Origin: a virus
Reading direction: 5' to 3' (one strand)
DNA: 64,000 bases
Virus record (IMG/VR): IMGVR_UViG_3300043788_000040
Location: 64,001-128,000 of that record
A program made the position numbers and the translations under genes. Under the pieces are notes generated by a model. That model worked only from the letters and a program-made list of their open reading frames with translations. It ran no database searches and was not told the DNA's origin. This document shows, piece after piece, positions 4,286 through 64,000 of this stretch. Within the stretch, counting starts at the first letter, position 1, and each line of letters begins with the position of its first letter.

Positions 4286-4314
4286 TTGACAATTTCTCAG
4301 CTACGCAGTATTCT
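4286..4314 (+). promoter_or_regulatory. sigma70-type promoter of Tyr/Leu tRNA array
   Basis: TTGACA-N17-TATTCT. Confidence 0.8.
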
Positions 4315-4323
4315 TTTAGAGCC

Positions 4324-4398
4324 ATGACAAACCTTACCCTATCCCTGACCTTGTATAGCCTGCTTAGCGGGCTTCACGGCGGTGTGTTCATCGGGTAA
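4324..4398 (+). CDS. Leu-rich attenuator leader peptide MTNLTLSLTLYSLLSGLHGGVFIG
   Basis: 24 codons, 7 Leu (CTT x3, CTG x2, CTA, TTG) plus Tyr TAT; lies between promoter and terminator. Confidence 0.75.
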   Translation: MTNLTLSLTLYSLLSGLHGGVFIG

Positions 4399-4424
4399 GA
4401 CAAGAATCAAACCCAGATTAGAAC

Positions 4425-4455
4425 AGCCGCCGAAGTCAGGCGGCTTTCGTATTTT
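4425..4455 (+). terminator. Attenuator terminator hairpin
   Basis: AGCCGCC/GGCGGCT stem then TTCGTATTTT; 5' arm can instead pair with GGCGGTGTGTTC (4378-4389). Confidence 0.75.
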
Positions 4456-4466
4456 ATGGGCAAAAT

Positions 4467-4554
4467 GGAGGGGATGGCACAATGGCGTGCCAGCAGACTG
4501 TAAATCTGCCGACCCTTGCGGTCATGGTGGGTTCGATCCCCACCCTCTCCACCA
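4467..4554 (+). tRNA. tRNA-Tyr(GTA)
   Basis: GGAGGGG/CCTCTCC acceptor, GCAGA-CTGTAAA-TCTGC, long variable arm, TTCGATC T-loop, ACCA. Confidence 0.92.
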
Positions 4555-4569
4555 ATTTTGGAGCATCAA

Positions 4570-4800
4570 ATGAAAGTAACCCAGACGCACCTGATGAGGA
4601 AGACTGAGCAAGGCACCGAGGTCCACACGATATGCTGGCTCGATGTAAAGCCGAATGTGAAGGTTGGCTCAAGGGTGTCCTTAGAGGACTCGCCAAACGA
4701 GTGGTGGACTGTCTTGTCTCAGGGTGGGTTGCAAGACTCCTCAGAGATCAACCGGAAGTGGGGTCTGGACCTGCCGAAGACTCAACGGCTGGAAAGGTAA
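4570..4800 (+). CDS. Hypothetical protein
   Basis: GGAG RBS and ATG at 4570, 76 aa. Confidence 0.6.
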   Translation: MKVTQTHLMRKTEQGTEVHTICWLDVKPNVKVGSRVSLEDSPNEWWTVLSQGGLQDSSEINRKWGLDLPKTQRLER

Positions 4801-5091
4801 AGCGAAAGGGCATTGAGTCCGGCAAGGTCACGGTGTGCAAGCACTGCGACACGAAGCACCCCATGTACGCGAACGGGACGATTTGCTTCATGGCTTTCTT
4901 CTACATCTACGAGCGTGACTTGCTCTGGATGGCAAGTCACGACGGCACCGATGGCATATCGGGCTGGCGTGCGCTAGCGAATGATCTGGGGTTCAAGGAT
5001 GCAAAGATAGACGTGCCTTGGACATTCCCAGACGAGGGTCGTCTGATCCCGTACCGGAGGATCAAGGACGGCAAGTTTTTGAGCAAGTAAT

Positions 5092-5177
5092 GCGAGCGTG
5101 GCGGAATTGGCAGACGCAACAGGTCGAGAGCCTGTCGGTTAACAGCCATGGAGGTTCAAGTCCTCTCGCTCGCACCA
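5092..5177 (+). tRNA. tRNA-Leu(GAG), atypical anticodon loop (C33, A37)
   Basis: Leu-type D arm GTGGCGGAATTGGCAGACGC, ACAGG-TCGAGAG-CCTGT, T arm, ACCA. Confidence 0.85.
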
Positions 5178-5180
5178 AGA

Positions 5181-5291
5181 TTGTCGGGCTAATTCTGTGA
5201 AACGGATGTCGGCAGAACCCCCGGTGACGCGAGCCTAGCTGTGGCAGGCGAATTGACGCCAAGGCGCTTTGAGGCTGTGGTCGCCCGACAA
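5181..5291 (+). ncRNA. Structured inter-tRNA RNA
   Basis: Ends TTGTCGGGC / GCCCGACAA pair; fills the space between two tRNAs. Confidence 0.45.
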
Positions 5292-5298
5292 AGAATTT

Positions 5299-5385
5299 GC
5301 GGATATGGCGGAGTTGGCAGACGCGCTGGTCTCAGAAGCCAGTGGGGTAAAACCCGTGGAGGTTCGAGTCCTCTTATCCGCACCA
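5299..5385 (+). tRNA. tRNA-Leu(CAG) (A37)
   Basis: GCGGATA/TATCCGC, CTGGT-CTCAGAA-GCCAG, variable arm, ACCA. Confidence 0.93.
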
Positions 5386-5388
5386 AGT

Positions 5389-5534
5389 TTGAGAGCGTTG
5401 AGTGGGGGAACTGGCATACCCGGAGCGCCGTAAGGTGACTCCACGTCCCCGAATTGACGGGGGCTGCGGCGCAGCGTGGCGAAGGCAGTGCGGGTTCGAT
5501 TCCCGCCTCGGAAAGCTGCGACAACCGCTCTCAA
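5389..5534 (+). ncRNA. tRNA-like RNA lacking an anticodon
   Basis: TTGAGAGCG/CGCTCTCAA terminal stem, D-arm-like GGGGAACTGGCATACCC, GTAA-capped hairpin, GCGGG-TTCGATT-CCCGC T arm. Confidence 0.65.
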
Positions 5535-5538
5535 GAAT

Positions 5539-5663
5539 TTCGGGCGACTTCGTTGTTCATGACAGCGAAGCAGTGAGTAAGTGGCGGAATATGGCAGACG
5601 CGGCACTTCGGTGCTTGGATGCAAATCCTTGTGGGTTCGATTCCCACCGCTCCATCGCCCGAA
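5539..5663 (+). ncRNA. tRNA-Leu-like RNA with UUCG hairpin in place of the anticodon arm
   Basis: TTCGGGCGA/TCGCCCGAA ends; GTGGCGGAATATGGCAGACGC D arm; GCAC-TTCG-GTGC; GGAT-GCAA-ATCC; GTGGG-TTCGATT-CCCAC. Confidence 0.7.
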
Positions 5664-5679
5664 CGCGTATTGAGGTCTT

Positions 5680-6066
5680 ATGGCGAAGTTTGAAGACCAT
5701 TGCAAGGACTGTGAACGCATCCTCGGCAACAAGCGCGAGGACGTGAACCGCTGGATGGACGAGCTTTTCAAGCAGTACGGACCTCGTCATCGTAGGCATC
5801 GTCACTGCTGGCACGGGGTGCGCACGGCGCTCAAGTTGTTTGGTATTGAGGGTGCGAAAGCTGCTATCATCCATATCGTGCGCGACTGTGGCGAGGTGCC
5901 GAGCCAGCGCACTTACGACGAGACGGCGCTGGGTGGCGGTGGAATTGTCATCGCACCGGAGTACACGTACTCAGACGGCGAAGCGGCGCAGAAGTCGTTC
6001 GCTGATGTAGTGAACAAAGAGTTTGAACGTGCTGCTGGGATAATTGGTAAGGACTGGCAGCAATAA
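5680..6066 (+). CDS. Hypothetical protein, His/Cys-rich
   Basis: GAGG RBS; HCKDC and HRRHRH motifs. Confidence 0.7.
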   Translation: MAKFEDHCKDCERILGNKREDVNRWMDELFKQYGPRHRRHRHCWHGVRTALKLFGIEGAKAAIIHIVRDCGEVPSQRTYDETALGGGGIVIAPEYTYSDGEAAQKSFADVVNKEFERAAGIIGKDWQQ

Positions 6067-6152
6067 GCGCGAGTGGCGGAATGGCAGACGCACTAGCTTG
6101 AGGTGCTAGCGGTGGAAACATCGTGGAGGTTCGACTCCTCTCTCGCGCACCA
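6067..6152 (+). tRNA. tRNA-Leu(GAG), canonical
   Basis: CTAGC-TTGAGGT-GCTAG, G37, ACCA. Confidence 0.95.
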
Positions 6153-6157
6153 AATTT

Positions 6158-6296
6158 GGGGGAATAGCATTGTGGAATGCGCCGGGGGTAACCCGGAGAA
6201 GTCGGTTCGACTCCGACTCTATATTCGGCAGTTGCGTTGTTCCCGACCGGATTGATTCCGGCTCGCGGTGAGCAGAGGGCGATACTTCCCCCACCA
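6158..6296 (+). ncRNA. CCA-ended tRNA-like RNA, no anticodon loop, insertion after T arm
   Basis: GGGGGAA/TTCCCCC-ACCA 7-bp acceptor; D-like GCATT/AATGC; CCGGG-GGTAA-CCCGG; GTCGG-TTCGACT-CCGAC. Confidence 0.7.
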
Positions 6297-6303
6297 AGTT
6301 AGG

Positions 6304-6397
6304 GGAAGCTCCGTTGTGCTGTCGGTTCGACTCCGACGACGTAGGGAAGGGCAAGCCGTGTAGACGGCCCGATTCTCGGAGAGGCACAACGACTTCC
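6304..6397 (+). ncRNA. T-loop-containing structured RNA
   Basis: GGAAG/CTTCC and CGTTGTGCT/GGCACAACG stems; same GTCGGTTCGACTCCGAC T arm as the previous element. Confidence 0.55.
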
Positions 6398-6405
6398 ATA
6401 AGTTT

Positions 6406-6491
6406 GCGGCTGTGGCGGAATTGGCAGACGCGCTAGCCTTAGGAGCTAGTGGCTAATAACCGTGGGGGTTCGAGTCCCTCCAGCCGCACCA
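6406..6491 (+). tRNA. tRNA-Leu(TAG)
   Basis: CTAGC-CTTAGGA-GCTAG, ACCA. Confidence 0.95.
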
Positions 6492-6496
6492 AGCTT

Positions 6497-6571
6497 TGGG
6501 CGCGGAATATGTCGCCGTGGCGGATCGTATGCCGACACGGTGCCCGCACATTCGGGGTAGCGCCCACACCA
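6497..6571 (+). ncRNA. tRNA-sized CCA-ended hairpin RNA
   Basis: TGGGCGC/GCGCCCA stem followed by CACCA; no D or T consensus. Confidence 0.45.
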
Positions 6572-6575
6572 GATT

Positions 6576-6662
6576 GCCGGGATGGCGGAATTGGCAGACG
6601 CGGCGGCCTCAAACACCGTTGCCTTAAAAAGCGTGCAGGTTCGACTCCTGTTCCCGGCACCA
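6576..6662 (+). tRNA. tRNA-Leu(CAA)
   Basis: GCCGGGA/TCCCGGC, loop CTCAAAC, ACCA. Confidence 0.93.
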
Positions 6663-6697
6663 ATTCCAGTATTATCGTGGTAGGGAGCTACACTACC

Positions 6698-7039
6698 ATG
6701 AAAATCTTCACCGCAGTTCTTTTGACTCTGTCGTTCGCCACACTGGCATCAGCCGCGACCATCAAGGCGTTCTCAGTGAACAACGTCGTTCGGGTCAAGG
6801 ACAACATCTACACCGCTGAGAAGTACATCGCCGACACGCACGGGGAAGCCAACGCAGGCGACATCGCCGAGCAGTACATCACGTTCAAGACCGAGGGCTG
6901 CCTACACAACCCCGCTGCCAACACCAGCGCGATCTATGTGACAACCCCGGACGGCGCAAAGCTGATCTTTTCCGATGGCGGCACTTGCACGGTTGATGTC
7001 ATGCAGAGCGACTCCAAAGCGCCTGCCGTCACAAAGTAA
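6698..7039 (+). CDS. Secreted protein
   Basis: Signal peptide MKIFTAVLLTLSFATLASA; GGGAG RBS. Confidence 0.7.
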   Translation: MKIFTAVLLTLSFATLASAATIKAFSVNNVVRVKDNIYTAEKYIADTHGEANAGDIAEQYITFKTEGCLHNPAANTSAIYVTTPDGAKLIFSDGGTCTVDVMQSDSKAPAVTK

Positions 7040-7072
7040 CCTGTAAGCTTCTCCGTTTCAACCACTTACTGG

Positions 7073-8470: not shown

Positions 8471-8518
8471 CGACGGCCGTTGTTTTGAAATTGCCCATTC
8501 CCAAGGTATTATTGGGTT

Positions 8519-9529: not shown

Positions 9530-9531
9530 GC

Positions 9532-10794: not shown

Positions 10795-10823
10795 TTGACA
10801 GTTTCCCGATTTCTTGGTACTAT
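10795..10823 (+). promoter_or_regulatory. sigma70-type promoter of Pro/Met/Phe tRNA array
   Basis: TTGACA-N17-TACTAT. Confidence 0.85.
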
Positions 10824-10876: not shown

Positions 10877-10951
10877 ATGAACACGATGCGACCATTTTCG
10901 GGATTCCGACCGTACACGCCACCCAGCGTGCGCGGGGTCGCAAGTCTCTGA
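10877..10951 (+). CDS. Attenuator leader peptide MNTMRPFSGFRPYTPPSVRGVASL
   Basis: 24 codons with Pro CCA/CCG/CCA/CCC, Phe TTT/TTC, Met x2; lies between promoter and terminator. Confidence 0.7.
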   Translation: MNTMRPFSGFRPYTPPSVRGVASL

Positions 10952-10961
10952 CTTAGGAGAC

Positions 10962-10993
10962 AGCCCCCGCGCTGCAAGGCGTCGGGGCTTTGT
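10962..10993 (+). terminator. Attenuator terminator hairpin
   Basis: AGCCCC-C-GCGCT-GCAA-GGCGT-C-GGGGCT plus short T tract; CCCCGCGC can instead pair with GCGCGGGG (10930-10937). Confidence 0.6.
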
Positions 10994-11051: not shown

Positions 11052-11139
11052 CGGGACGTAGCCTCGTAAATGGAAGCGATCTCGCTTTGGAAGCGAGAGC
11101 TTAACCGCCTTGGGAGTTCGAGTCTCCCCGTCCCGACCA
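11052..11139 (+). tRNA. tRNA-Pro(TGG), atypical (long variable region, A37, irregular D arm)
   Basis: CGGGACG/CGTCCCG-ACCA, CTCGC-TTTGGAA-GCGAG. Confidence 0.8.
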
Positions 11140-11168
11140 AGTTTCGTTCGTGAAGTCAACGAACATGT

Positions 11169-11245
11169 CAGGGCGTAGCGCAGTCTGGTAGCGCACTCGT
11201 TTCGGATACGAGGGGTCGCTGGTTCGAATCCAGTCGCCCTGACCA
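11169..11245 (+). tRNA. tRNA-Pro(CGG) (A37)
   Basis: CAGGGCG/CGCCCTG, CTCGT-TTCGGAT-ACGAG, ACCA. Confidence 0.93.
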
Positions 11246-11434
11246 AGTTTGAGAGGCCCGGTGGACGTACCCATCGGCGTAAGTGGGTGGTTACATCCAG
11301 CCTCGTTGAGTGTGAGGTGGAGCGACATACGGGAAGGCGGCTGGCGATCAGCCCCCGGAGTCGTGGTACCGCAAGGTCCATAGTGCTGCCTGCCTAACCG
11401 CTCGCCGGATGGCAGCACGAGTCGCCCATAATTT

Positions 11435-11511
11435 CGGGACGTAGCGAAGCCTGGTATCGCGCACCCTTGGGGTGGGTGAGGCCCCGAGTTCGAATCTCGG
11501 CGTCCCGACCA
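11435..11511 (+). tRNA. tRNA-Pro(GGG)
   Basis: CACCC-TTGGGGT-GGGTG, ACCA. Confidence 0.93.
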
Positions 11512-11639
11512 AATTTTAGTAGTCAAAGGAAGCAATGATGAACAAACAACGCGGCTGGTACACAAGGATTTCAATGTAAGGCACCCTCACGTCCGTTTCG
11601 GTCGGAGGGATACTATCCCTCTGGGAAAGGAGACGGACG

Positions 11640-11825
11640 ATGAAGGTCGTGAAGGTGAAGTTTAACGCCAAGATGTTTTTCGTGAAGTTTGTGTTTTTCG
11701 TTGTTATCGCTGTGGTTGTGATCGCGATCTTCAAGAAGATCGGCGAGTTGGTTACCGCAGCGAAGTTGGTTGAGATGGCAGGCGAGGCTGTAAGCGAGGC
11801 TTTGTCTGAGGCAATCGACGTTTAA
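11640..11825 (+). CDS. Small membrane peptide (61 aa) with sequestered RBS
   Basis: AGGAG RBS; hydrophobic FVFFVVIAVVVIAIF segment. Confidence 0.65.
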   Translation: MKVVKVKFNAKMFFVKFVFFVVIAVVVIAIFKKIGELVTAAKLVEMAGEAVSEALSEAIDV

Positions 11826-11829
11826 GTTT

Positions 11830-11932
11830 TGCAGGTTCGGATTGAGGGGCAGGGTTAATGGCCCTGCTCCGTCCCGTGTGGGTGACCCATTATCACCCTT
11901 AAGCGCCAGTGAAAAGCTGGAGCCTGCGACCA
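11830..11932 (+). ncRNA. CCA-ended cloverleaf-like RNA without T-loop consensus
   Basis: TGCAGGTTC/GAGCCTGCG-ACCA with three internal hairpins. Confidence 0.5.
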
Positions 11933-11936
11933 GTTT

Positions 11937-12008
11937 TGCGGGGAAGTGAATTGGATCACGTCAGCCTCATAAGCTGAAAACCCGGTTCGAATCCGGCGAC
12001 CGCAACCA
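11937..12008 (+). tRNA. Degenerate tRNA-Met(CAT)
   Basis: TCAGC-CTCATAA-GCTGA, TTCGAAT loop, CCGCA-ACCA; acceptor stem mismatches. Confidence 0.65.
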
Positions 12009-12080
12009 ATTTGGGCAGGTAGTGCCTCCGAACGGCGGGCACGTAAAGCGGAATCAACCGCCATCCTAGCCCGACATTTT

Positions 12081-12686
12081 ATGGAACAGTACCCAGAGAT
12101 ACCCGGCGCGAAGAAAGCTCCCCTCGGGGAGAAGTGCATCGCGTTCTACAAGTACGACGGCTCCAACCTCCGGTGGGAATGGAGTCCGAAGCGTGGCTGG
12201 TACAAGTTCGGCACACGGACGGAATTGTTTGCCCCGAACCATCCGCTGTGGGGGCAGGCGGTGCCGCTCTTCAACGCAGTCGGCGACGACATCGTCAAGC
12301 GGGTGCTGGCGAGTGACAAGAAGTTCCGCAACATTGAGCGGATCATAGCGTTCACGGAATTCTTCGGGCCTTCAAGCTTTGCCGGGACGCACGACGAGAA
12401 GGAACAGAAGGAACTCAGGCTCTTTGACGTTTGGCTGTACAAGAAAGGCAGGATGTCCCCCCGGTGGTTTGTGGAGACGTTCGGAGACGCACCCTATGCG
12501 GCTCAGGTGATCTACGAAGGCAACCTGAACATGGAGTTCATCCGCGACGTGCGGACTGGGAAGTATCCGGTGTGGGAAGGAGTCGTGGCGAAGGGCGACG
12601 ACTTCATGGTCAAGATCAAGACCGAGGCGTACATGCTGAAGCTGAAAGAAGTGTACGGTCTGAACTGGGAAAAGTTTTCGGAGTAA
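12081..12686 (+). CDS. ATP-dependent RNA ligase-like nucleotidyltransferase (Rnl2-like adenylation domain)
   Basis: Motifs KYDGSN (I), EFFG (III), LFDV (IIIa), EGVV (IV), KIK (V). Confidence 0.8.
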   Translation: MEQYPEIPGAKKAPLGEKCIAFYKYDGSNLRWEWSPKRGWYKFGTRTELFAPNHPLWGQAVPLFNAVGDDIVKRVLASDKKFRNIERIIAFTEFFGPSSFAGTHDEKEQKELRLFDVWLYKKGRMSPRWFVETFGDAPYAAQVIYEGNLNMEFIRDVRTGKYPVWEGVVAKGDDFMVKIKTEAYMLKLKEVYGLNWEKFSE

Positions 12687-12687
12687 A

Positions 12688-12764
12688 CGGGACGTAGCGT
12701 AGCCTGGTATCGCGCATGCTTCGGGAGCATGAGACCGTGGGTTCGAATCCCACCGTCCCGACCA
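12688..12764 (+). tRNA. tRNA-Pro(CGG), canonical G37
   Basis: CATGC-TTCGGGA-GCATG, ACCA. Confidence 0.95.
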
Positions 12765-12769
12765 AGCTT

Positions 12770-12958
12770 ATGAGCAACAAGGTCAATCATAGACGGAGTG
12801 GGAAAGTTCGGGCGCAGCGCAGCAGGCGTTCGTCTAATCTGGTCAACGACCCGCGCCGGGACATCGGCAGGAATCACAACGACCAACTTTGCCACTCGGA
12901 GTGGAAGAAGATCAAGACGAGAATTGAGCGTCGCAGGTTAAAGGGAGAAGGAAGATGA
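12770..12958 (+). CDS. Small basic protein
   Basis: Arg/Lys-rich 62 aa; TGA overlaps the ATG of the release factor. Confidence 0.5.
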   Translation: MSNKVNHRRSGKVRAQRSRRSSNLVNDPRRDIGRNHNDQLCHSEWKKIKTRIERRRLKGEGR

Positions 12959-13615
12959 TTCTGGAGATAAGAGCAGCGGAAGGAGGCGAGGACGCGAAGC
13001 TCCTCGTTGAAGACCAAGTCACCATCTATGCCCGTGTGGCAACACGGAGGGGTCTTTAGTTTTGAGATTGTGGAGAAGCGACCGGGTCTCGTCGTATTGA
13101 GGATCACGGGCGCTGGGGCGGAAAGCATACTCGCCAACGAATCGGGTGGTCACCGCTGGCAAAGGGTACCGCCGACCGAGAGGCGAGGCAGGGTGCAGAC
13201 GAGCACGATCACCGTCGCAACGTTCGCCGAGGTGGCGACGGAAGAGTTCAAGGTGAACCCCACTGACTTAGAATGGGACACCATGCGAAGCGGGGGCAAG
13301 GGCGGGCAGAACGTGAACAAGGTTGAGTCCTGCGTTCGTGTCACGCACAAGCCGACCGGGCTGGCAGTACGATGTGAGTCCGAGCGGTCGCAGTCACGCA
13401 ACAGGGCGACGGCGCTTGCTACCCTGACTGCCCGGCTGGCAGCAGCGCACCGGGAGCGGGAGCAGGGCGCACAGTCCGCCGACCGGAAGGCGCAGATCGG
13501 CACGGGACAGCGTGGGGACAAGCGTAGGACAATCCGTGAGAAGGACGGGGTCGTGACAGACCACATCCTAAACCGGAAATGGCGATACGCGGACTATGTA
13601 CGTGGGCTGTGGTAA
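12955..13615 (+). CDS. RF1-type peptide chain release factor lacking domain 1, expressed via +1 frameshift at CTT-TAG (13054-13059)
   Basis: Frame 0 MILEIRAAEGGEDAKLL...RRGL*; +1 frame HRWQRVPPTERRGRVQTS and SGGKGGQNVNK; GGAGG 3 nt before CTT. Confidence 0.85.
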
Positions 13616-13618
13616 GAT

Positions 13619-13696
13619 GGCGGTGTAGCTCAGTTGGCTAAGAGCGCTGGTCTCATAAACCAGAGGTCGCTGGTTCGATCCCAGCCACCGCTACCA
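13619..13696 (+). tRNA. tRNA-Met(CAT), elongator type (Ile2 not excluded)
   Basis: GGCGGTG/CACCGCT, CTGGT-CTCATAA-ACCAG, ACCA. Confidence 0.9.
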
Positions 13697-13783
13697 AATT
13701 TTGCAGTACAAGGAGACAACGATGGCTAACCTTAGCAAGACCACTCATGCCGCGTAAGGCGTGGGCGGTCAAAGGAGAACCAA

Positions 13784-14299
13784 ATGTTGTCAGAAATCAA
13801 AAAGGCGGTCTCGCTGTACTTTGAGCCGCTCAAGAAGCTGTTGCAGTTCCGCGTAAAGCGCTGGCATACGGCTATGCGCGGCTGGGACGAGAAGGACATC
13901 CGGGTCATCATCTGTCTTGAAGACTTGATCTGGTACTGGATGGTTTTGGAATGGCTGTTCTGGGACAATGGCACGTACATCTGCCACTGGCTCCATTACG
14001 TCCCGCTTCCAAAATTTATCTGCAACTGGGAGCGTCACTGGGACAAGGACGACCCGGAGTACTTCGCCAAGTTCGGTGATTGGTTCGGCGATGACTTCGG
14101 ATGCCTGTGGCACGTATGGGTCTGTGACCCGTTGTGCCAGTGGGTGTGGAAGCACAAGGATTTCCACAAGGCGTGGCCTCAGTGGGAATTGACGCTGGAA
14201 GAAGCTCGCAAGACGTTTGCCCATGATCCGGCCATTTATGAGTGGGTTGAAAAAGAGCTTGAACAGCACAAGAAGTGGGATGCAGAAAAGGCTGAATAG
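13784..14299 (+). CDS. Hypothetical Trp-rich protein
   Basis: AAGGAG RBS, 171 aa. Confidence 0.65.
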   Translation: MLSEIKKAVSLYFEPLKKLLQFRVKRWHTAMRGWDEKDIRVIICLEDLIWYWMVLEWLFWDNGTYICHWLHYVPLPKFICNWERHWDKDDPEYFAKFGDWFGDDFGCLWHVWVCDPLCQWVWKHKDFHKAWPQWELTLEEARKTFAHDPAIYEWVEKELEQHKKWDAEKAE

Positions 14300-14315
14300 C
14301 GGTATCATATACAGA

Positions 14316-14457
14316 GTGGGAACCCCTCACTAACCTGACGAGGGGAGTTACCTGAAGACGCGGGATGGCCCAAAAGCGCTAGTTACCCGGCAGTCTAGGC
14401 TCTTAATCGCGTAACGGCTGAATAGCCGGAGCCGATGGTAACGGGGTTCTCACGCCA
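14316..14457 (+). ncRNA. CCA-ended structured RNA
   Basis: 11-bp GTGGGAACCCC/GGGGTTCTCAC stem followed by GCCA. Confidence 0.55.
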
Positions 14458-14512
14458 AGTTTTCAGTCCCAGTCCTGTCTGACTGGGTGGTTGCGGGGGC
14501 AAAAATTTCTGT

Positions 14513-14589
14513 CGCGGGATGGAGCAGCCCGGAAGCTCGCTTGGCTCATAACCAAGAGGTCGGTGGTTCAAATCCACCTCCCGCTACCA
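14513..14589 (+). tRNA. Initiator tRNA-fMet(CAT)
   Basis: CGCGGGA start with C1/U72 mismatch, GAGCAGCCCGGAAGCTC D arm, CTCATAA, TTCAAAT, ACCA. Confidence 0.9.
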
Positions 14590-15011
14590 GTTCAACGCCC
14601 GTAGGCTACGAGCCGAGAAGCAGAAGGGCTAGCAGAGTCATACGACCTTATAGGACGGGAAAGCTCTGCAACAGATGTGGCACGGGAGAACCGATGCGGG
14701 GAAGTCGCCTGTAAGTTTCCGTGCCGTCGTTTTCGGTTCCGTGTTCGTTTAAGGCGCAAGCCGGGTTCGTCACGGATTAAAGTGGTGGTCCAACGGAGAC
14801 GCCCCACGCCGAAGTGAGTTAACGCTCTAATACGGGAGCCAATCAATAACTCCCGTGGGGGCAGGTAAGACGCATTCGCTGAGTAATCTCCGGTTATCCG
14901 GTTGGTGCAGCGGTGAAATCGCGAATCATAGCGTCTTCTTAAACCGCCAGCCATGAGGGTCCCTGACGTCGGGTGGTGCAGTACTTCATGGAGCAATTTG
15001 GCGGTACGAGT

Positions 15012-15153
15012 TTCGCAGCGGTGTATTGTACGGTTACTTCATGCAACCAGTAGGTCGCGGGTTCGAATCCCGTCATCCCAACGCTTTACGGGGTGTAGCT
15101 CAGTGGTAGAGCGACAGGTAAGAAAAACGCCGTGCATCTTTGTTCCCTGCGGA
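15012..15153 (+). ncRNA. YrlA-like Y RNA (circularly permuted tRNA-like domain)
   Basis: GCAG-C-GG/CC-CTGC bulged terminal helix; T arm, closed acceptor stem and D arm GCTCAGTGGTAGAGC in permuted order; motif shared with RNAs next to the TROVE gene. Confidence 0.75.
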
Positions 15154-15525
15154 TTAACTTTTCCTCGTTTAGCAAAACGAGGTGGCGCAGCGGAGAAGCT
15201 TTAGCGACTCCGTCAGCCGTTCTCGGACGTAAACCGAGTGGTGGAGGCGGGCACACTGTGCTCGCCCCTCAATGTCAGTTGAAGTACCGACGAGGCACGA
15301 AATGTGTGAACCGTTGACTCGGGAAAAAGACTGGCACCAAATTTGAAGATGTTGTCCCAGTCAAGCTGTCGGACTAAACTCTGGACCCGGAGTAATGGGC
15401 TTGAAAGAAGCCATGCCCTAATAAGGAAGGCTGACAGCAAAAGATTACAATGAAGCTCACGTCCCAACTCGACACGTTTACCACGCCGCTTAAGGCGGCG
15501 CAGTAAACCTATCTGTGTACTGTAC

Positions 15526-15601
15526 CCGGACGTAGCTGATGTGGACTTAGCGCCACCCTGAAAAAGTGGAGATGGGAGTTCGATTCTCCCCGTCCGGACC
15601 A
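15526..15601 (+). tRNA. tRNA with Phe anticodon (GAA) and Pro-like acceptor stem
   Basis: CCGGACG/CGTCCGG-ACCA, loop CTGAAAA. Confidence 0.8.
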
Positions 15602-15603
15602 AC

Positions 15604-15681
15604 GGGGAGCGAGCTAGTCCGGTGATTTAGCGTCCGCCTGAAGAGCGGAAGAATTCGGTTCGACTCCGAGGCTCCCCGCCA
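15604..15681 (+). tRNA. tRNA-Phe(GAA), atypical (G8, G37, G73)
   Basis: GGGGAGC/GCTCCCC-GCCA, TCCGC-CTGAAGA-GCGGA. Confidence 0.8.
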
Positions 15682-35911: not shown

Positions 35912-36361
35912 GTGGGGCCTGATTGTCCCCGCTGCAACCGCCCGTTCAGTGAGGGAGGCAAGCCCCGCCGACCGGGAGATCGGCGCTGTGGCGCGGCTAA
36001 AGGACTGTGCAGTGAGTGCTATCACAAGGAGTATCACGCTGGTAAAACACCAGAACAGCGTGAGGCTCATCGCAAACGCACCCGAGAGCGCAGTGCTGAG
36101 GCTAAGGCTGAAGTCTACCGAATTCTAGGACGTGCTTGTGCCTGCTGCGATGAGAGGCGAGAAGAGTTCCTGACTGTTGACCATATCGGCGGAGGCGGAC
36201 GCAAGCACAGGAAGAAGATTGGGTCAGGCCTTTGGTTTTACCAGACGATTCTCAAAGAAGGCGTCCCCAGAGATAAGTATCGGTTGTTGTGTTGGAACTG
36301 CAACAGCGCCATTGGCGTGTTTGGGTATTGCCCGCACGAAAGGGAGAGAAATGGGAGTTGA
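35912..36361 (+). CDS. HNH/EndoVII-like endonuclease
   Basis: CACC...LTVDHI...LLCWNCNSAIG. Confidence 0.8.
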   Translation: MGPDCPRCNRPFSEGGKPRRPGDRRCGAAKGLCSECYHKEYHAGKTPEQREAHRKRTRERSAEAKAEVYRILGRACACCDERREEFLTVDHIGGGGRKHRKKIGSGLWFYQTILKEGVPRDKYRLLCWNCNSAIGVFGYCPHERERNGS

Positions 36362-37514
36362 TACACATAAGGTGGAGATTGTTCCAGTCAGTCTTGAACC
36401 GCACCCGAATGCGGATCGCTTATCTGTGGTGCGGGTGTACAACTTCACTTGCGTCGTGAATACCGCCGACTGGACTGGTGTTGAGAAGGCTGCGTACGTC
36501 CAGCCGGACTCCGTCATGCCGGACACGCCCGAGTACCGCTTCCTCAAGAACACCTCCAGCTTCCGCAAGGAACGTGAGGCTCTTGATGCCGTGCTTGCGG
36601 CAGATCACGAGAGCGACCTTTGCCGACTGGATTACAACGAGAAGGTCGCTGCCCTTGAGGCGAAGATTGACGCCAACACCAAGCACCTCCGCATCACCGT
36701 GAAGAAGCTACGTGGCATCATCTCCATGGGTATGCTCCTGCCCGCGCCGGAAGGCTCACAGATCGGCGACGACGTGGCGGAGCAGCTTGGCATCACGCAC
36801 TACGAACCGCCCTCTATGGACGAGCTTGACGGCCGCAGGCAGCATGCCGGGGACGATGTCGGACCCGCGTCGCCGATGATCTACGCCCCGAAGTACGACG
36901 TGGAGTCCATTTACAAATTCGCCGACTGCTTTGACGCGGGCGAGCCTGTGTACGTGTCCGAGAAGCTGGACGGGCAGAACGGCCGCTTCGTGGCGACTGA
37001 GAACGGCAACGAGACGGTCATAGAGCCGGGACGACGGTCCACCCTCGTCTCCCTGTACGCCGGATCGCGCACCGAGTGGAAGAAGAAGGAAGGCGGCTCA
37101 AACTGGTGGAGGGTCATGGAGGACAACCCTTGGATTGATCGGTGGTGCTACGACAACCAAGACTCCGTCCTTTACGGGGAAGTCTTCGGCTGGGTGCAGG
37201 CTCTCAAGTACGGAGCCAAGCCAGGGCAGCTTTTCTTCCGCGCCTTTGACGTCATGGAAGGCATGGAATACTGGGATGCCGAAAAGTTCATTGCGGAGAT
37301 TTATAAGGATTGCCGAGTACCGGACTTCGGCGTCATGCCGTACGACTTTGAGAAGTTGCAGGCCTTAGCGGATGGACCCTCCCTCATCAAGGGTGCCGAC
37401 CACATGCGCGAGGGCATCGTGATCAAGCCAGTCAAGGAGCGCAAGCACTGGAAGCTGGGGCGTGTTATGTTGAAGATGGTTTCCAACGCGTACCTTGAGA
37501 AATCCGCAAGATAG
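36351..37514 (+). CDS. RNA ligase, DRB0094/Rnl5 family
   Basis: HPNADRL, LRGIISMG, SEKLDG, YGEVFG, AFDV, REGIVIK, LKMVS..YL. Confidence 0.92.
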   Translation: MGVDTHKVEIVPVSLEPHPNADRLSVVRVYNFTCVVNTADWTGVEKAAYVQPDSVMPDTPEYRFLKNTSSFRKEREALDAVLAADHESDLCRLDYNEKVAALEAKIDANTKHLRITVKKLRGIISMGMLLPAPEGSQIGDDVAEQLGITHYEPPSMDELDGRRQHAGDDVGPASPMIYAPKYDVESIYKFADCFDAGEPVYVSEKLDGQNGRFVATENGNETVIEPGRRSTLVSLYAGSRTEWKKKEGGSNWWRVMEDNPWIDRWCYDNQDSVLYGEVFGWVQALKYGAKPGQLFFRAFDVMEGMEYWDAEKFIAEIYKDCRVPDFGVMPYDFEKLQALADGPSLIKGADHMREGIVIKPVKERKHWKLGRVMLKMVSNAYLEKSAR

Positions 37515-60901: not shown

Positions 60902-61324
60902 GTACCCCTACCTATGGTGGGAAAGCCCACGAATACCAAGTACTCGGGCTGGACAAAAATGTCCATTTCGCTGTATACTATTGCTGTGAGAGACCCTCTA
61001 AAATGCCCACGGTGTGGGCTTGGCAAAGACACGGACGGCGACGGCGATTGTCCGGTATGCGCCCACTGGGAAGACGGTCGAGAAGTCGGCCCGGCGCTCG
61101 CTAAGCTGATCCGCAGGAGCAAGAAGAAACAATGAGCCGCACCTACTCGCGGAGGACATGCCGATGCGGGCGGGAAGTCAGCGCCAACGGCGCAGCGTGG
61201 CACAACCACATGATGGGGCACGTCCGCAAGGGCGAGGCAACCAAATCATTCGTAATCTCCGGCTGCCTCACGCCGGGCGCTGGTTCACGGTACACCGAAT
61301 TTCGCTGGATAAAGGAGCCTGCTA

Positions 61325-62146
61325 ATGCGACGAGGAAGTAAGCCCGCTTTGATCTACGACGAGGTTCGCAAGAACGCAGACGGCAAACCGCTGCTTCTCG
61401 GCATCAACCTTTCCTCGGACTTTTGCGCCGAGCACGAGTGGGGCATCAAGGACATCAAGTCCGCTTTTGGCATCCCCGAAAAAGGTTACGGCTTGAAGCG
61501 CCGCCAGATCACAGCTACGCCCAAAGGACTTGCATGGGTGAAGTACGCTGCCAAGACCTACATGGGACGTTACGACGTGGAACGAGGTTTGGCGAAGAAG
61601 GTTGGGGATGTGACTCTCAAGAACGAGGGCTTTGTCTTCCATGGCTGGTACGGATTGGAGCCAGAGAAGATGGCGGTCTCCAGCGAGTTGTCTGGCGCTG
61701 GTCTCCGGGGCGCATGGTCGGACGACGATTTCGCTGCCGTGTCCAGCAGCCCGGAGGACATCGTCGCCCTCAAGGAAATTTTCTCCGCGTTTGAAAACAA
61801 AAACATCGCTGTCTGCTTCTCCGCTGCACTGCCCGCTTTTGACAACGCAGGTCTCGTCTTCGCCATCGCCGACCGCCTGCCCGAGAGTGTCACCGAAGAT
61901 TGGGACAAGTACGACCGGGAACAGGAGAAGATCAAGAAAGAGTTCACGGCGACTGGTATTGAGAAGCTTCTCGCCGATGCGGGCAAGCGGTACTATGCCC
62001 TTTCACCACGCCGCCGTGACGACGGTAGTCTGTGGTACTGGCTGAACCCTATGGAACAGCAGCAGCACAACTACGGCTGGTTCACTCTTGAAGACCTTCA
62101 GGCATGGGCACGCAACGAAGGTCCGATCCCGATGAAGCAAAAGTAG
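61325..62146 (+). CDS. Hypothetical protein
   Basis: AAGGAG RBS, 273 aa. Confidence 0.7.
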   Translation: MRRGSKPALIYDEVRKNADGKPLLLGINLSSDFCAEHEWGIKDIKSAFGIPEKGYGLKRRQITATPKGLAWVKYAAKTYMGRYDVERGLAKKVGDVTLKNEGFVFHGWYGLEPEKMAVSSELSGAGLRGAWSDDDFAAVSSSPEDIVALKEIFSAFENKNIAVCFSAALPAFDNAGLVFAIADRLPESVTEDWDKYDREQEKIKKEFTATGIEKLLADAGKRYYALSPRRRDDGSLWYWLNPMEQQQHNYGWFTLEDLQAWARNEGPIPMKQK

Positions 62147-62159
62147 TTCAGTATTAGAC

Positions 62160-62570
62160 GTGATGGAAAGACCATCACGAATCATTGACGCAATCCGTGC
62201 TGAACTCGGACCGCACCTCGTCAAATCCAACTACCGCAAATTTCTCCCCAAGGACGCCAAGCCGTCGTGGGGCACCTGCTACGTGGCGTCCGAAGCCCTG
62301 TACCACTTGTGGGGTAAAGAGAATGGCTTCACGCCCGTCCGCATACCGTACAAGGTCAATCGCACTATGAACGGGCAGCACTGGTTCCTTGAGCATAGGC
62401 CTTCGGGGTTCCAAGTGGACATCACGGCAGACCAGTTCACAAAGTCCCCGCCGAACCGGGTGCCGGACTGGACGAAGGCGGTTCCAGCCGGATTCCTTAC
62501 CAAAAAGCCCTCCAAACGTGCCCAACAGATCATTGACGTCGTCCGCAAAAAATTTCAGTTTGATAATTGA
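62160..62570 (+). CDS. Hypothetical protein, possible Cys-His-Asp (papain/transglutaminase-like) fold
   Basis: GTCYVASEAL...HWFL...DITADQF. Confidence 0.5.
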   Translation: MMERPSRIIDAIRAELGPHLVKSNYRKFLPKDAKPSWGTCYVASEALYHLWGKENGFTPVRIPYKVNRTMNGQHWFLEHRPSGFQVDITADQFTKSPPNRVPDWTKAVPAGFLTKKPSKRAQQIIDVVRKKFQFDN

Positions 62571-62595
62571 CAGAATCCCCTAACTACGGTATTCT
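62567..62595 (+). promoter_or_regulatory. sigma70-type promoter of Y RNA-TROVE operon
   Basis: TTGACA-N17-TATTCT, same hexamers as 4286-4314. Confidence 0.75.
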
Positions 62596-62664
62596 CCCTT
62601 AGAGAGACTTTGACGGTGGCGTTTCCCTGCGTCCGCAGGGCGACATCCCCTCTTAGCAATTTTG

Positions 62665-62766
62665 GTCGTGCAGCGGTGTTTAGCTGACGGATACTTCTTC
62701 CAATGAACAGCCCGCTAGGGCTGCGGAGGCTTGCCTCCTTTCCGTTGCTTATTGTTCCCTGCCGAC
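62665..62766 (+). ncRNA. Y RNA-like element 1
   Basis: GCAGCGG...ACGGATACTTC...CCGTTGCTTATTGTTCCCTGC; upstream of TROVE gene. Confidence 0.7.
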
Positions 62767-62775
62767 AATTCTTGT

Positions 62776-62901
62776 GTGCGGCGGTTTTTGGTTACGGTTA
62801 CTTCTGCCTGTAAAGCAGACGAGCGGGGTTCGACCCCCCGGCGACCCGTGAGGGTCGTGGCGTGGGCCTAGTCAAATACCGAAGCCTATTGTTCCCCGCA
62901 C
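62776..62901 (+). ncRNA. Y RNA-like element 2 with tRNA-Tyr-like arms
   Basis: GCGGCGG...ACGGTTACTTC...CCGAAGCCTATTGTTCCCCGC; TCTGC-CTGTAAA-GCAGA and T arm inside. Confidence 0.72.
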
Positions 62902-63019
62902 CTAATTTCACTCAGCACCAAACGGGACGCTTGCATGAGTACGCTGCCCGTGCTGTTGCCGAAACATGGCGTAGAACCAAGCGATAGGCACAGCAAATTT
63001 TAGTTCAAAGAGGTGAACT

Positions 63020-64000
63020 ATGGCATCACTCAACACTGCAACGAAGACTGCAAAGACTGCAATCAAGACCGCCGAGGGCGGCAAGGCTGTCAACATTGGC
63101 AAGGCGCTTCAGCTTCAGCGCTTGCTGAACGCATGCCTCCTGTGGGAGGACAACTTTTACTCTGACGGCGAGTCCGTCGCCAACGCGATGCGCAAGCTCG
63201 TGCGTGAGGTTCCTGCCGAGAAGGTCGCCGAACTCGCGATCAAGGCTCGTGAAGAGCAGAAGCTTCGCCACGCCCCGCTGCTCATCGTGTACGAGATGAC
63301 CCTCGCCTCCAAGTCTCACCGTGAGCTTGTCGGGGAGACGCTCGCCCGTGTGGTTCAGCGCCCGGACGAGATCACTGAGTTCGTGGCGATCTACTACAAG
63401 CTTGGCGGCGGGAAGCGTCCGCTCTCCAAGCAGGTCAAGAAGGGTCTGGCCGCAGCCTTCAACAAGTTCAACGAGTACTCGCTCGCAAAGTACAACCGTG
63501 ATAAGGACATCAAGCTCGCGGACGTGCTGGCGCTCGTTCACCCGAAGCCGAAGGACAAGGAACAGGGTCTTCTTTTCGCGAAGCTTGCGAACAAGGATCA
63601 CCTGCCGAAGAAGACGAAGTACGCCGCGTTTCCGGTGGCTAACACCTACCGTGCGCTCGCAAAGAACTTCGTCGGCCTCGTCACGCCGGACACTTGGGAG
63701 GTCGCACTCTCTGGTGGAGCGGACAAGAAGGAGACTTTCACTCGTCTCATCGCCGAGGACAAGCTTGGTGGTCTGGCAATGATCCGCAACCTGCGCAACA
63801 TGCAGGAAGCGGGCGTGTCGGATGCGGTCATCAAGCAGGGTCTCTCGCAGATGAACGCTGAGCGTGTGCTTCCGTTCCGCTTCATCTCGGCGGCGAAGTA
63901 CGCTCCGAAGTTTGAGCAGCACCTTGAGGCAGCGATGTTCAAGTGCCTTGAGGGCTTCTCCAAGCTGAAGGGCAAGACTGTGCTGCTCGTGGACGTTTCT
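63020..64000 (+). CDS. TROVE-domain (Ro60-like) RNA-binding protein with vWA domain, truncated by window end
   Basis: GAGGTG RBS; my translation gives CLLWEDNFY, KLRHAPL, QRPDE, KFNEYSLAKY, HPKP, TWEVALS, MIRNLRNM, LPFRF, LLVDVS. Confidence 0.9.
   Translation, partial: MASLNTATKTAKTAIKTAEGGKAVNIGKALQLQRLLNACLLWEDNFYSDGESVANAMRKLVREVPAEKVAELAIKAREEQKLRHAPLLIVYEMTLASKSHRELVGETLARVVQRPDEITEFVAIYYKLGGGKRPLSKQVKKGLAAAFNKFNEYSLAKYNRDKDIKLADVLALVHPKPKDKEQGLLFAKLANKDHLPKKTKYAAFPVANTYRALAKNFVGLVTPDTWEVALSGGADKKETFTRLIAEDKLGGLAMIRNLRNMQEAGVSDAVIKQGLSQMNAERVLPFRFISAAKYAPKFEQHLEAAMFKCLEGFSKLKGKTVLLVDVS

What the first reader, a model, noticed from the sequence alone, without database searches (positions are those of the whole stretch)
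4286..64000. Integrated translation-surveillance system
Taken together, the codon-matched attenuators, variant tRNAs, tRNA mimics, RNA ligases, stop-codon-sensing release factor and Ro60/Y RNAs suggest the phage monitors each failing part of host translation and supplies or repairs it on demand. The two arrays and the Y RNA-TROVE unit all use TTGACA-17-TA(T/C)(T)(C/A)T host-type promoters.
Basis: inference. Interest (0 to 1): 0.8.

Follow-up and report, generated by a model that had tools for sequence, protein, structure and literature searches.

The report
Phage translation-support genes, partly self-sensing
An uncultured giant phage carries tRNA operons switched by tiny test genes written in their own codons, plus a release factor, RNA ligases and Ro60 with Y RNAs, but these behave as separable modules that relatives carry in different combinations, not as one integrated machine.

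Summary
Both tRNA arrays start with TTGACA-17-TAnnnT, then a 24-codon leader ORF, then a terminator that competes with an antiterminator. Each leader contains at least one codon for every anticodon type in its own array (joint P about 1e-3 and 4e-3) and does not match the other arrays. A third array outside the window and more distant relatives follow the same rule. Operon C also holds a 201-aa RNA-ligase catalytic domain, an RF1-type release factor without domain 1 that needs a +1 frameshift at GGAGG-GGU-CUU-UAG, and a Y-like RNA. Two more Y RNAs and Ro60 form their own promoter unit. That unit continues past the window into a Pnkp, Rnl1-type ligase and CCA-enzyme island.

The idea of one integrated system is only partly supported. 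Only the attenuators and the frameshift are plausible sensors. Among phage records that carry the release factor, Ro60 occurs in 7 of 38, the small ligase in 13 of 33, and attenuators occur without either. The "tRNA mimics" in array B look like decaying tRNA genes. Sigma-70-like promoters also precede ordinary protein genes. There are no expression data.

This scan had already noted the attenuators, the frameshift and the Ro60 unit separately on this same genome.

The parts
4286..4314 (+). Sigma-70-like promoter of tRNA operon B (TTGACA-17-TATTCT)
4324..4398 (+). Leader ORF B (MTNLTLSLTLYSLLSGLHGGVFIG). It has 7 Leu codons (CTT, CTA, CTG, TTG) and one TAT, which together cover every anticodon type in array B.
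   Evidence: 35% cognate codons versus 11% background, all 5 anticodon types covered, joint P about 1e-3. A homologous leader is present in L007.
4378..4455 (+). Switch B. Antiterminator strand 4378-4389 pairs with 4421-4432. The terminator hairpin is at 4425-4445, followed by a T-run.
   Evidence: In ribosome-masked folds, a stall at codons 5-13 gives the antiterminator; a ribosome at codon 14 or later, or at the stop codon, gives the terminator.
4467..6662 (+). tRNA array B: Tyr(GTA), Leu(GAG) x2, Leu(CAG), Leu(TAG), Leu(CAA), interspersed with small ORFs and four degenerate tRNA-like remnants
10795..10823 (+). Sigma-70-like promoter of operon C (TTGACA-17-TACTAT, preceded by TG)
10877..10951 (+). 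Leader ORF C (MNTMRPFSGFRPYTPPSVRGVASL). It contains CCA, CCG, CCC, TTT, TTC and an internal ATG, which cover every anticodon type in array C.
   Evidence: joint P about 4e-3. Conserved in L003/L004 and L007.
10930..10988 (+). Switch C. GCGCGGGG (10930-10937) is complementary to the 5' arm of the hairpin at 10963-10988. The T-run after the hairpin is weak.
   Evidence: One compensatory C-G to U-A change in the L004 hairpin.
11052..15681 (+). tRNA array C: Pro x4, Met-anticodon x3, Phe x2, with protein genes and RNAs in between
12081..12686 (+). Stand-alone RNA-ligase nucleotidyltransferase domain (201 aa). It has KYDGSN, FTEFFG, EGVVAK and KIK motifs.
   Evidence: Residues invariant across 11 homologues. 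AlphaFold2 mean pLDDT 88.7. Foldseek top hits are RNA ligases REL1, Naegleria RNA ligase, T4 Rnl1/Rnl2 and Pab1020. It matches phrog_548. Three homologues pass the Pfam RNA_ligase cut-off.
12770..12958 (+). Small basic ORF (62 aa). Its TGA stop overlaps the release-factor ATG (ATGA).
   Evidence: Read from the sequence; no family match.
12955..13615 (+). RF1-type release factor without domain 1. Frame 0 runs 12955-13059 and ends at TAG. The shift site is GGAGG-GGT-CTT-TAG-T (13046-13060). The +1 frame runs 13058-13615 and carries PPT and GGQ.
   Evidence: The shift site is conserved in about 20 related loci.
15011..15155 (+). Y-like RNA inside array C, with a terminal helix GCAG-C-GG/CC-CUGC and a tRNA-like T-arm and D-arm module
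   Evidence: Rfam YrlA 45.1 bits, below the gathering score of 69. It is one of the five training sequences of model R1, so its 92.7-bit score there is by construction. 82% identical in L004. No match in L007, whose record has no TROVE match.
36177..37514 (+). Second RNA ligase (445 aa): DRB0094-type nucleotidyltransferase domain with an N-terminal OB domain, located among replication genes
62567..62595 (+). Sigma-70-like promoter of the Y RNA/Ro60 unit (TTGACA-17-TATTCT)
   Evidence: TTGACA-17-TATTAC sits at the same place in relative L085.
62666..62904 (+). Two tandem Y-like RNAs (62666-62767 and 62774-62904)
   Evidence: The model built from them finds same-strand matches next to TROVE in 14 of 18 other phage contigs.
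63020..64000 (+). Ro60 orthologue (TROVE plus vWA; 476 aa in full, ending about 450 bases past the window)

Best explanation
The span holds a giant-phage translation-support gene set made of separable modules, two of which carry their own translation-coupled switch.

1. Attenuated tRNA operons. Each tRNA operon begins with a host-type promoter, a short leader ORF and a terminator. The leader holds at least one codon for every anticodon type encoded downstream. If ribosomes read those codons quickly they reach the end of the leader. There they cover the strand that would otherwise pair with the 5' arm of the terminator, so transcription stops. If any of those tRNAs is scarce, the ribosome stalls earlier, the antiterminator forms, and the operon is transcribed. 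This is a multivalent leader-peptide attenuator applied to tRNA genes.

2. Contents of operon C. It also encodes a minimal ATP-dependent RNA ligase and an RF1-type peptidyl-tRNA hydrolase lacking domain 1. The full-length hydrolase is made only when a ribosome shifts +1 at CUU-UAG after an internal Shine-Dalgarno sequence. Its output should therefore rise when termination at that stop codon is slow. Operon C also holds a Y-like RNA.

3. The Ro60 unit. Two more Y RNAs and Ro60 form a unit with its own promoter. It leads into a classical T4-type tRNA-repair island (Pnkp, Rnl1-type ligase, CCA-adding enzyme) just past the window.

4. A DRB0094-type ligase sits among replication genes.

Shown here: the sequences, motifs, folds, codon statistics and conservation. 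Inferred: that the switches operate as described, that operon C is one transcript, and that the purpose is to keep translation running when host tRNAs or ribosomes fail or are attacked.
For: Attenuators:
- Each leader matches only its own array, and the frame-shifted control gave no match.
- A third array at genome 30385-30590 shows the same layout, with all 13 anticodon types covered.
- Each of the three leaders has a strand near its 3' end that is complementary to the terminator 5' arm.
- Leaders B and C are conserved in L004 and L007, with one compensatory change in hairpin C.
- Unrelated arrays in relatives follow the same rule. In L006, MKNLLSNSYCLSSLSLSGG... precedes a Leu/Cys/Ser/Tyr array. 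In L028...KITTGTTTTTKTGKGK... precedes a Met/Thr/Lys/Gly/Asn array. L006, L013 and L008 give further cases. The four best binomial P values are 6e-6 to 7e-5 among 250 candidate ORFs.

Release factor:
- It scores 150 bits against solved RF1, 88 against RF2 and 59 against PrfH.
- PPT and GGQ are present.
- The GGAGG-NNN-CUU-stop site and the continuation in the +1 frame are conserved in about 20 loci.
- The gene lies within 2 kb of a tRNA in 17 of the 19 closest loci.

Ligase and operon C:
- Ligase identity.
- It is adjacent to the release-factor gene in the window and in G001, G002, G005 and G008.
- No other promoter-like or terminator-like site is predicted on the + strand between 10990 and 16040.

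Y RNAs, Ro60 and the island:
-.
- In L006, a tRNA array, then a promoter, two Y RNAs and Ro60 are contiguous.
- Repair island past the window.

Modularity.
Against: - There are no expression data.
- Terminator C has a poor U-tract, and the simple terminator scan did not call it.
- For leaders A and C the ribosome-masked equilibrium folds switch less cleanly than for B. In A the competing helix removes only about 3 of the 11 terminator pairs.
- The stop codon at the shift site varies among relatives (mostly TGA, some TAG or TAA), while the PxT motif stays PPT. The frameshift therefore cannot in general be autoregulation by a factor specific for that stop codon.
- A single transcript for operon C rests only on the absence of consensus signals.
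- The host is unknown.
- A leader of this kind cannot tell a lack of tRNA from a lack of amino acid.
Confidence: 0.6

Rival explanations
1. All components form one co-adapted surveillance system in which each failing part of host translation is sensed and then supplied or repaired on demand.
For: - Two real candidate sensors.
- tRNAs, ligase, release factor and a Y RNA lie together behind attenuator C.
- tRNA array, Y RNAs and Ro60 are contiguous in L006.
- A Pnkp/Rnl1-type ligase/CCA-enzyme island lies next to Ro60.
Against: - Ro60 is in only 7 of 38 records that carry the release factor, and an RF-1 domain gene is in 1 of 5 larger Ro60-bearing records.
- G002 has attenuators, release factor and ligase but no TROVE match, and no Y-like RNA in the locus searched.
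- G003 and G004 have attenuators and the release factor but no ligase.
- No sensor element was found for the Ro60 unit or for the ligase at 36177.
- The shared promoter type also drives ordinary protein genes.
Confidence: 0.12
2. A constitutive toolkit. The short ORFs are not regulators: they are chance ORFs or small-protein genes between an early promoter and a terminator. The tRNAs are then transcribed from other, phage-specific promoters. The frameshift is merely tolerated or sets a fixed ratio of products.
For: - The count of TTGACA-type sites in the genome is near chance.
- Terminator C lacks a good U-tract.
- The equilibrium folds are ambiguous for leaders A and C.
- No expression data exist.
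Against: - Codon matching is specific to each leader's own array in three of three arrays.
- It recurs with different amino-acid sets in distant relatives.
- The strand complementary to the terminator sits 6-20 nt before the leader stop codon in all three leaders.
- The shift site with its internal Shine-Dalgarno sequence is conserved while surrounding codons diverge.
Confidence: 0.1
3. Same parts, different purpose. The set maintains phage translation late in infection, compensating codon usage after host transcription and tRNA renewal stop. It is not a counter to tRNA- or ribosome-targeting defences, and the attenuators simply hold tRNA levels steady.
For: - The phage uses all the codons its tRNAs read.
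- The arrays sit among replication genes: DNA polymerase A, 5'-3' exonuclease, clamp loader.
- An attenuator responds to any shortage of charged tRNA, whatever its cause.
Against: - Paralogue pairs with altered anticodon loops occur here and in relatives, including C33 next to the wobble base. Published work links such changes to escape from anticodon nucleases (PMC10264068).
- A full end-healing and sealing set (Pnkp, three ligases, CCA enzyme) points to cleaved RNA as the substrate (PMC7824862).
- The two purposes are not mutually exclusive.
Confidence: 0.18

Closest known systems
Multivalent leader-peptide attenuators of bacterial amino-acid operons (trp, his, leu, ilvGMEDA, pheST)
   Same: Promoter, short ORF rich in regulatory codons, mutually exclusive antiterminator and terminator, and a ribosome position that decides the fold.
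   Different: The genes controlled are the tRNAs themselves rather than biosynthetic enzymes or synthetases. The leader samples one codon for each anticodon type of 5 to 13 different tRNAs instead of a run of one codon. Other genes ride along (RNA ligase, release factor, Y RNA). A full-text search for leader peptide, attenuation and phage tRNA array found no paper describing this.
prfB (RF2) programmed +1 frameshift
   Same: An internal Shine-Dalgarno sequence three bases before CUU, followed by an in-frame stop, with the rest of the factor in the +1 frame.
   Different: The protein is RF1-like, not RF2-like. Here the site lies in domain 2, which would point to an independent origin. The stop is UAG here but UGA or UAA in relatives, with no matching change in the PxT motif.
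PrfH-RtcB2 ribosome rescue and repair pair (PMC9304027, PMC1586002)
   Same: A release-factor homologue without domain 1 lies next to an RNA ligase gene. The adjacency is kept in five related phages.
   Different: The factor is far closer to RF1 than to PrfH and keeps a PxT motif. The ligase is an ATP-dependent nucleotidyltransferase domain, not RtcB, and no RtcB is in the record. The adjacency is lost in more distant relatives.
Bacterial and phage Ro60 with YrlA-type Y RNAs (PMC4201824), and the Salmonella rsr-yrlBA-rtcBA operon (PMC7790460)
   Same: A TROVE plus vWA protein with tandem same-strand RNAs that have a terminal helix and a tRNA-like module, placed near RNA-repair enzymes.
   Different: The Rfam YrlA score is below the curated threshold. 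The GNCGAA motif is absent from the window copies. One paralogue lies 48 kb from Ro60, inside a tRNA array.
Jumbo-phage RNA-repair and tRNA toolkits (PMC7824862), and T4 Pnkp with Rnl1
   Same: Many tRNAs, several RNA ligases, Pnkp, a CCA-adding enzyme and sporadic TROVE proteins. That review reads them as counter-measures to attacks on translation.
   Different: That review describes gene content, not translation-coupled control of it. In the passages my term searches of that review returned, I found no account of a phage release-factor gene sitting in tRNA arrays.

Membership tests
Ribosome-mediated (leader-peptide) transcription attenuator | A short translated ORF enriched in codons tied to the function of the regulated genes | tested here: met
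   Match to own array only in 3 of 3 leaders; the rule recurs in relatives. Translation itself is not shown.
Ribosome-mediated (leader-peptide) transcription attenuator | An intrinsic terminator between the leader and the structural genes | tested here: inconclusive
   Clear for B (4425-4455) and for A. C has a GC-rich hairpin but a weak U-tract.
Ribosome-mediated (leader-peptide) transcription attenuator | A mutually exclusive antiterminator whose 5' strand lies within a ribosome's reach of the leader stop codon | tested here: met
   Complementary strands lie 6-20 nt before the stop codon in A, B and C. The masked folds switch cleanly for B and less cleanly for A and C.
Ribosome-mediated (leader-peptide) transcription attenuator | Read-through rises when the cognate charged tRNA is limiting | not testable with these tools
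   Needs reporter assays or Term-seq.
prfB-type programmed +1 frameshift | CUU followed by a stop, an internal Shine-Dalgarno sequence about 3 nt upstream, and the product continuing in +1 | tested here: met
   GGAGG-GGT-CTT-TAG-T at 13046-13060; conserved in about 20 loci.
prfB-type programmed +1 frameshift | Autoregulation: the stop codon at the shift site is read by the encoded factor | tested here: inconclusive
   UAG with an RF1-like PPT motif fits in this phage. Relatives with the same motif have UGA or UAA, so there is no covariation.
Class I release factor RF1 | PxT codon-recognition motif and GGQ catalytic motif | tested here: met
   VPPTE and GGQ. Best matches are RF1 structures and the RF1 models of NCBIfam, though below their equivalog cut-offs.
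Class I release factor RF1 | An N-terminal domain 1 | tested here: not met
   The match starts at about residue 120-160 of RF1. The whole product is about 220 aa.
PrfH | Closest by sequence to PrfH, and paired with RtcB | tested here: not met
   PrfH 59 bits versus RF1 150 bits; NCBIfam PrfH score 89.6 against a cut-off of 166.65; no RtcB in the record.
ATP-dependent RNA ligase (covalent nucleotidyltransferase) | Motif I KxDG lysine, motifs III, IV and V, and the adenylyltransferase fold | tested here: met
   K24, D26, G27, E93, E166-G-V and K171 are invariant or nearly so. Foldseek E-values of 4e-7 to 1e-5 to RNA ligases. For 36177-37514: Pfam RNA_ligase 63.6 bits; NCBIfam DRB0094 model 130 bits, below its cut-off of 151.
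ATP-dependent RNA ligase (covalent nucleotidyltransferase) | An accessory substrate-binding domain | tested here: not met
   The 201-aa protein is the catalytic domain alone. The 445-aa ligase has an N-terminal OB domain.
Y RNA (YrlA class) | Encoded next to Ro60 on the same strand | tested here: met
   Two of the three copies lie 120-350 nt upstream of Ro60; the third is 48 kb away. The model hits lie beside TROVE in 14 of 18 other phage loci.
Y RNA (YrlA class) | A terminal helix formed by the 5' and 3' ends, plus a tRNA-like T-arm and D-arm module | tested here: met
   Helix with a compensatory A-U to G-C change and an invariant bulged C. The T-arm and D-arm align to the YrlA model. The copy at 62666-62767 lacks the tRNA-like part.
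Y RNA (YrlA class) | Reaches the Rfam gathering score; has the GNCGAA motif (PMC4201824) | tested here: not met
   45.1 bits against 69. The 5' strand reads GCAGCGG. The L006 copy does have GUCGAAUG.
Ro60 | TROVE ring domain plus vWA domain | tested here: met
   TROVE 63 bits, VWA_2 and vWA_Ro60 in the full 476-aa ORF.
Functional tRNA mimic (array B elements) | Conserved structure across relatives | tested here: not met
   No conservation for three of the four. The fourth has a broken acceptor stem in the window and a broken anticodon arm in L004. Fold z-scores are -0.2 to -1.4.

The most novel reading that the evidence does not exclude
Attenuator C is the master switch of a stall-induced rescue operon. 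When ribosomes pause at Pro, Met or Phe codons, read-through delivers four things together: replacement tRNAs, an RNA ligase, a domain-1-less release factor that frees the jammed ribosomes, and a Y RNA that recruits Ro60. The release factor is further gated by slow termination. This would be a phage-encoded counterpart of the damage-induced bacterial rtcBA-rsr-yrlA regulon, triggered by ribosome stalling rather than by a protein sensor. It would also be the first case of tRNA genes controlled by leader-peptide attenuation.
Probability: 0.3. Interest if true: 0.85.

Novelty: new variant of a known kind. Interest (0 to 1): 0.62.

Why it matters
Phage tRNAs, RNA ligases and Ro60 are usually catalogued as gene content. 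Here the sequence suggests how part of that content is switched. A translated test strip written in the operon's own codons would report tRNA supply, and a stop-codon frameshift would report termination capacity.

If this holds, it extends a textbook regulatory mechanism to tRNA genes. It also gives a direct, testable link between host attacks on tRNAs and a phage response. Finally, it offers compact, portable sensors of the supply of specific tRNAs.

The negative result matters too. The parts are mixed and matched among related giant phages, so they should be studied as modules and not as one machine.

Tried and rejected
- Megablast of two 16-20-kb pieces against deposited phages found only tRNA-sized matches.
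- RtcB and PNK3P were searched in the record and not found.
- The small ligase has no Pfam, NCBIfam or PDB match by sequence on its own. A profile search of PDB gave only marginal hits to Rnl3-like entries. Its identity came from motifs, the predicted fold and PHROGs.
- I tested whether the stop codon at the frameshift site covaries with the PxT motif. It does not.
- I tested whether the array B tRNA-like elements are conserved mimics. I rejected this in favour of decaying tRNA-Leu genes.
- Rfam at a relaxed threshold found no further known RNA family in 4000-16500 or 60800-64000 apart from tRNAs and one YrlA-like match. The noncoding stretches 14590-15010 and 15165-15525 remain unexplained and are not conserved.
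- The Y RNA model found no extra copies in the window beyond the three.
- I ran no complex prediction, because this report claims no protein-protein binding.
- The co-occurrence counts lack a phylogeny-corrected background. Ligase presence tracks genome size.

Full report
**Context.** The window is bases 64001-128000 of a 170.5-kb IMG/VR phage record that CheckV rates 54% complete. The record has 31 tRNA genes in three arrays. Array A (Val, Ala, Asp, Cys, Gly, Glu) lies outside the window. Array B (Tyr plus five Leu) is at 4467-6662, and array C (four Pro, three CAU-anticodon, two Phe) is at 11052-15681. Neighbouring genes are replication functions: a 5'-3' exonuclease, DNA polymerase A and a clamp loader. 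No deposited phage is close at the DNA level. The release-factor gene retrieved 80 related loci, mostly from contigs of 100-550 kb.

**Promoters.** TTGACA-N16-18-TAnnnT occurs four times in the whole record. Three of these are on the + strand, exactly at the starts of array B (4286), array C (10795) and the Y RNA/Ro60 unit (62567). Array A has TTGACA-17-GAATAT. The count is what chance would give, so the placement is the informative part. The same hexamer stands before leaders in relatives and before the Y RNAs of the closest relative. Equally good sigma-70-like sites precede protein genes at 7073, 8485, 16079 and 60950. The promoter type marks host-polymerase transcription in general and does not define a dedicated regulon.

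**Attenuators.** Leader B (4324-4398) has CTT x3, CTG x2, CTA, TTG and TAT. The array behind it has anticodons GAG, CAG, TAG, CAA and GTA. Leader C (10877-10951) has CCA x2, CCG, CCC, TTT, TTC and an internal ATG. Its array has TGG, CGG, GGG, GAA and CAT. Leader A (46 codons) covers all 13 anticodon types of its array.
- Against random ORFs drawn from the phage's own codon usage, the fraction of cognate codons is 0.58, 0.35 and 0.30 for A, B and C. The backgrounds are 0.36, 0.11 and 0.11. Together with complete anticodon coverage this gives joint P values of 5e-4, 1e-3 and 4e-3.
- No leader matches another array. An accidental out-of-frame reading gave no signal.
- Each leader has a strand complementary to the 5' arm of the following hairpin, 6-20 nt before its stop codon.
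- Folding with a 30-nt ribosome mask gives the expected switch for B: the antiterminator forms with the A site at codons 5-13, and the terminator from codon 14 to the stop. The patterns for A and C are noisier.
- Leader C is conserved in L003/L004 and L007. The Met, Pro and Phe positions are kept, GCGCGGGG is invariant, and the hairpin shows one compensatory change. Leader B of L007 again has one codon for each of the four Leu anticodon types and two Tyr codons before two tRNA-Tyr genes.
- Arrays with different contents in other relatives have leaders with matching contents. The four best of 250 candidates survive Bonferroni correction.
- Weak points: the U-tract of terminator C is poor, and nothing shows translation or termination directly.

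**Release factor.** Frame 0 (12955-13059) encodes MILEIRAAEGGEDAKLLVEDQVTIYARVATRRGL and stops at TAG. The +1 frame continues with the RF1-like ...HRWQRVPPTERRGRVQTSTITVA... and GGQ. The site GGAGG-GGU-CUU-UAG-U has the geometry of the prfB site.
- The protein is RF1-like: 150 bits to solved RF1, 88 to RF2 and 59 to PrfH. It lacks domain 1.
- About 20 related loci keep the internal Shine-Dalgarno sequence, CUU and a stop codon. The stop is UGA in most, UAG in five and UAA in two, and PPT does not change with it.
- The frameshift is therefore real and selected. In general it reports how slowly some stop codon is read. Strict self-regulation is plausible only where the stop is UAG or UAA, as here.
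- In the nearer clade the gene sits inside tRNA arrays.

**Ligases.** The 201-aa ORF at 12081-12686 has the ligase motifs, which are invariant across 11 homologues. Its model is confident, and the nearest solved structures are RNA ligases. It is adjacent to the release-factor gene in the window, G001, G002, G005 and G008, and is unlinked or absent elsewhere. The 445-aa ORF at 36177-37514 is a DRB0094-type ligase with an OB domain, set among unrelated genes. A third ligase, of the T4 Rnl1 type, lies outside the window.

**Y RNAs and Ro60.** Three RNAs (15011-15155, 62666-62767, 62774-62904) share a terminal helix with a bulged C, one compensatory change, and the strands ACGGNUACUUC and UUGUUCC.
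- Two of them contain a tRNA-like module. The first aligns over the full length of the Rfam YrlA model but scores below its threshold.
- A covariance model built from these RNAs finds same-strand matches beside TROVE genes in 14 of 18 independently retrieved phage contigs. It also finds them in L006, directly after a tRNA array and before Ro60.
- The array-borne copy is present in G001, which has Ro60. No Y-like RNA was found in the 20-kb G002 locus searched, and the G002 record has no TROVE match.
- Ro60 is a complete TROVE plus vWA protein. It is followed by peptide deformylase, Pnkp, an Rnl1-type ligase and a CCA-adding enzyme.

**Variant tRNAs and "mimics".** Paralogues differ in the anticodon loop. 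Leu(GAG) at 5092 has C33, the Pro(CGG) copies have A37 or G37, and one Phe has G37. C33 tRNAs recur in relatives. This fits published escape from anticodon nucleases (PMC10264068), but that reading is inference. The four extra T-arm elements of array B are best read as decaying tRNA genes.

**Integration.** Physical linkage supports a core made of tRNA arrays, leaders and the release factor, often with the small ligase. The distribution argues against one system.
- TROVE is in 5 of 33 plus 2 of 5 release-factor-bearing records.
- An RF-1 domain gene is in 1 of 5 larger TROVE-bearing records.
- The small ligase is in 13 of 33 records and any Pfam RNA_ligase in 16 of 33, mostly the largest genomes.
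- Attenuators occur in genomes with neither ligases nor TROVE.

The general theme, that giant phages stock tRNAs, RNA ligases, Pnkp and TROVE to protect translation, is already published (PMC7824862). What appears new is the translation-coupled control. This scan had already noted the attenuators, the frameshift and the Ro60 unit separately on this genome.

Noticed in passing
L102:521-12777 (genome 127020-139276, starting in the window at 63020): One-strand island: Ro60, GIY-YIG endonuclease, peptide deformylase, Pnkp (kinase plus HAD phosphatase), T4 Rnl1-type RNA ligase and a CCA-adding/poly(A) polymerase family enzyme.
   Followed up: partly
window 56880-57022 (- strand): A tRNA-like domain (T-arm GGUUCAACUCC) clamped by a 12-bp helix formed by its 5' and 3' flanks. 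Fold z-score is -3.2, and a strong terminator follows at 56830-56807.
   Followed up: partly
L004, L006, L007 tRNA arrays: tRNAs with C33 instead of the near-universal U33 recur: two CAU-anticodon tRNAs in L004, one Tyr in L007, and five of 34 in L006.
   Followed up: partly
window 15526-15601: tRNA-Phe(GAA) has the acceptor stem CCGGACG, nearly the same as the CGGGACG of the phage's Pro tRNAs. It may derive from a Pro tRNA by anticodon change.
   Followed up: no
window 14590-15010 and 15165-15525: About 800 nt inside array C with no coding signal, no Rfam match and almost no conservation in the closest relative.
   Followed up: partly
window 8123-10008: Between the two arrays lie a stand-alone response-regulator receiver domain, an AAA ATPase and a NADAR-domain protein.
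   Followed up: no
window 16139-16498 and L102:2729-3277: GIY-YIG endonuclease genes flank the end of array C and follow Ro60. They may be homing elements next to the RNA clusters.
   Followed up: no
window 52669-53187: PhoH-like ATPase; the ORF as called starts at profile position 39.
   Followed up: no
L016 and L020, release-factor homologues: In these two relatives the PxT segment is deleted (…HRWQEKSGGRMQTS…) while the frameshift site is kept. They may have lost codon reading, as PrfH has.
   Followed up: no
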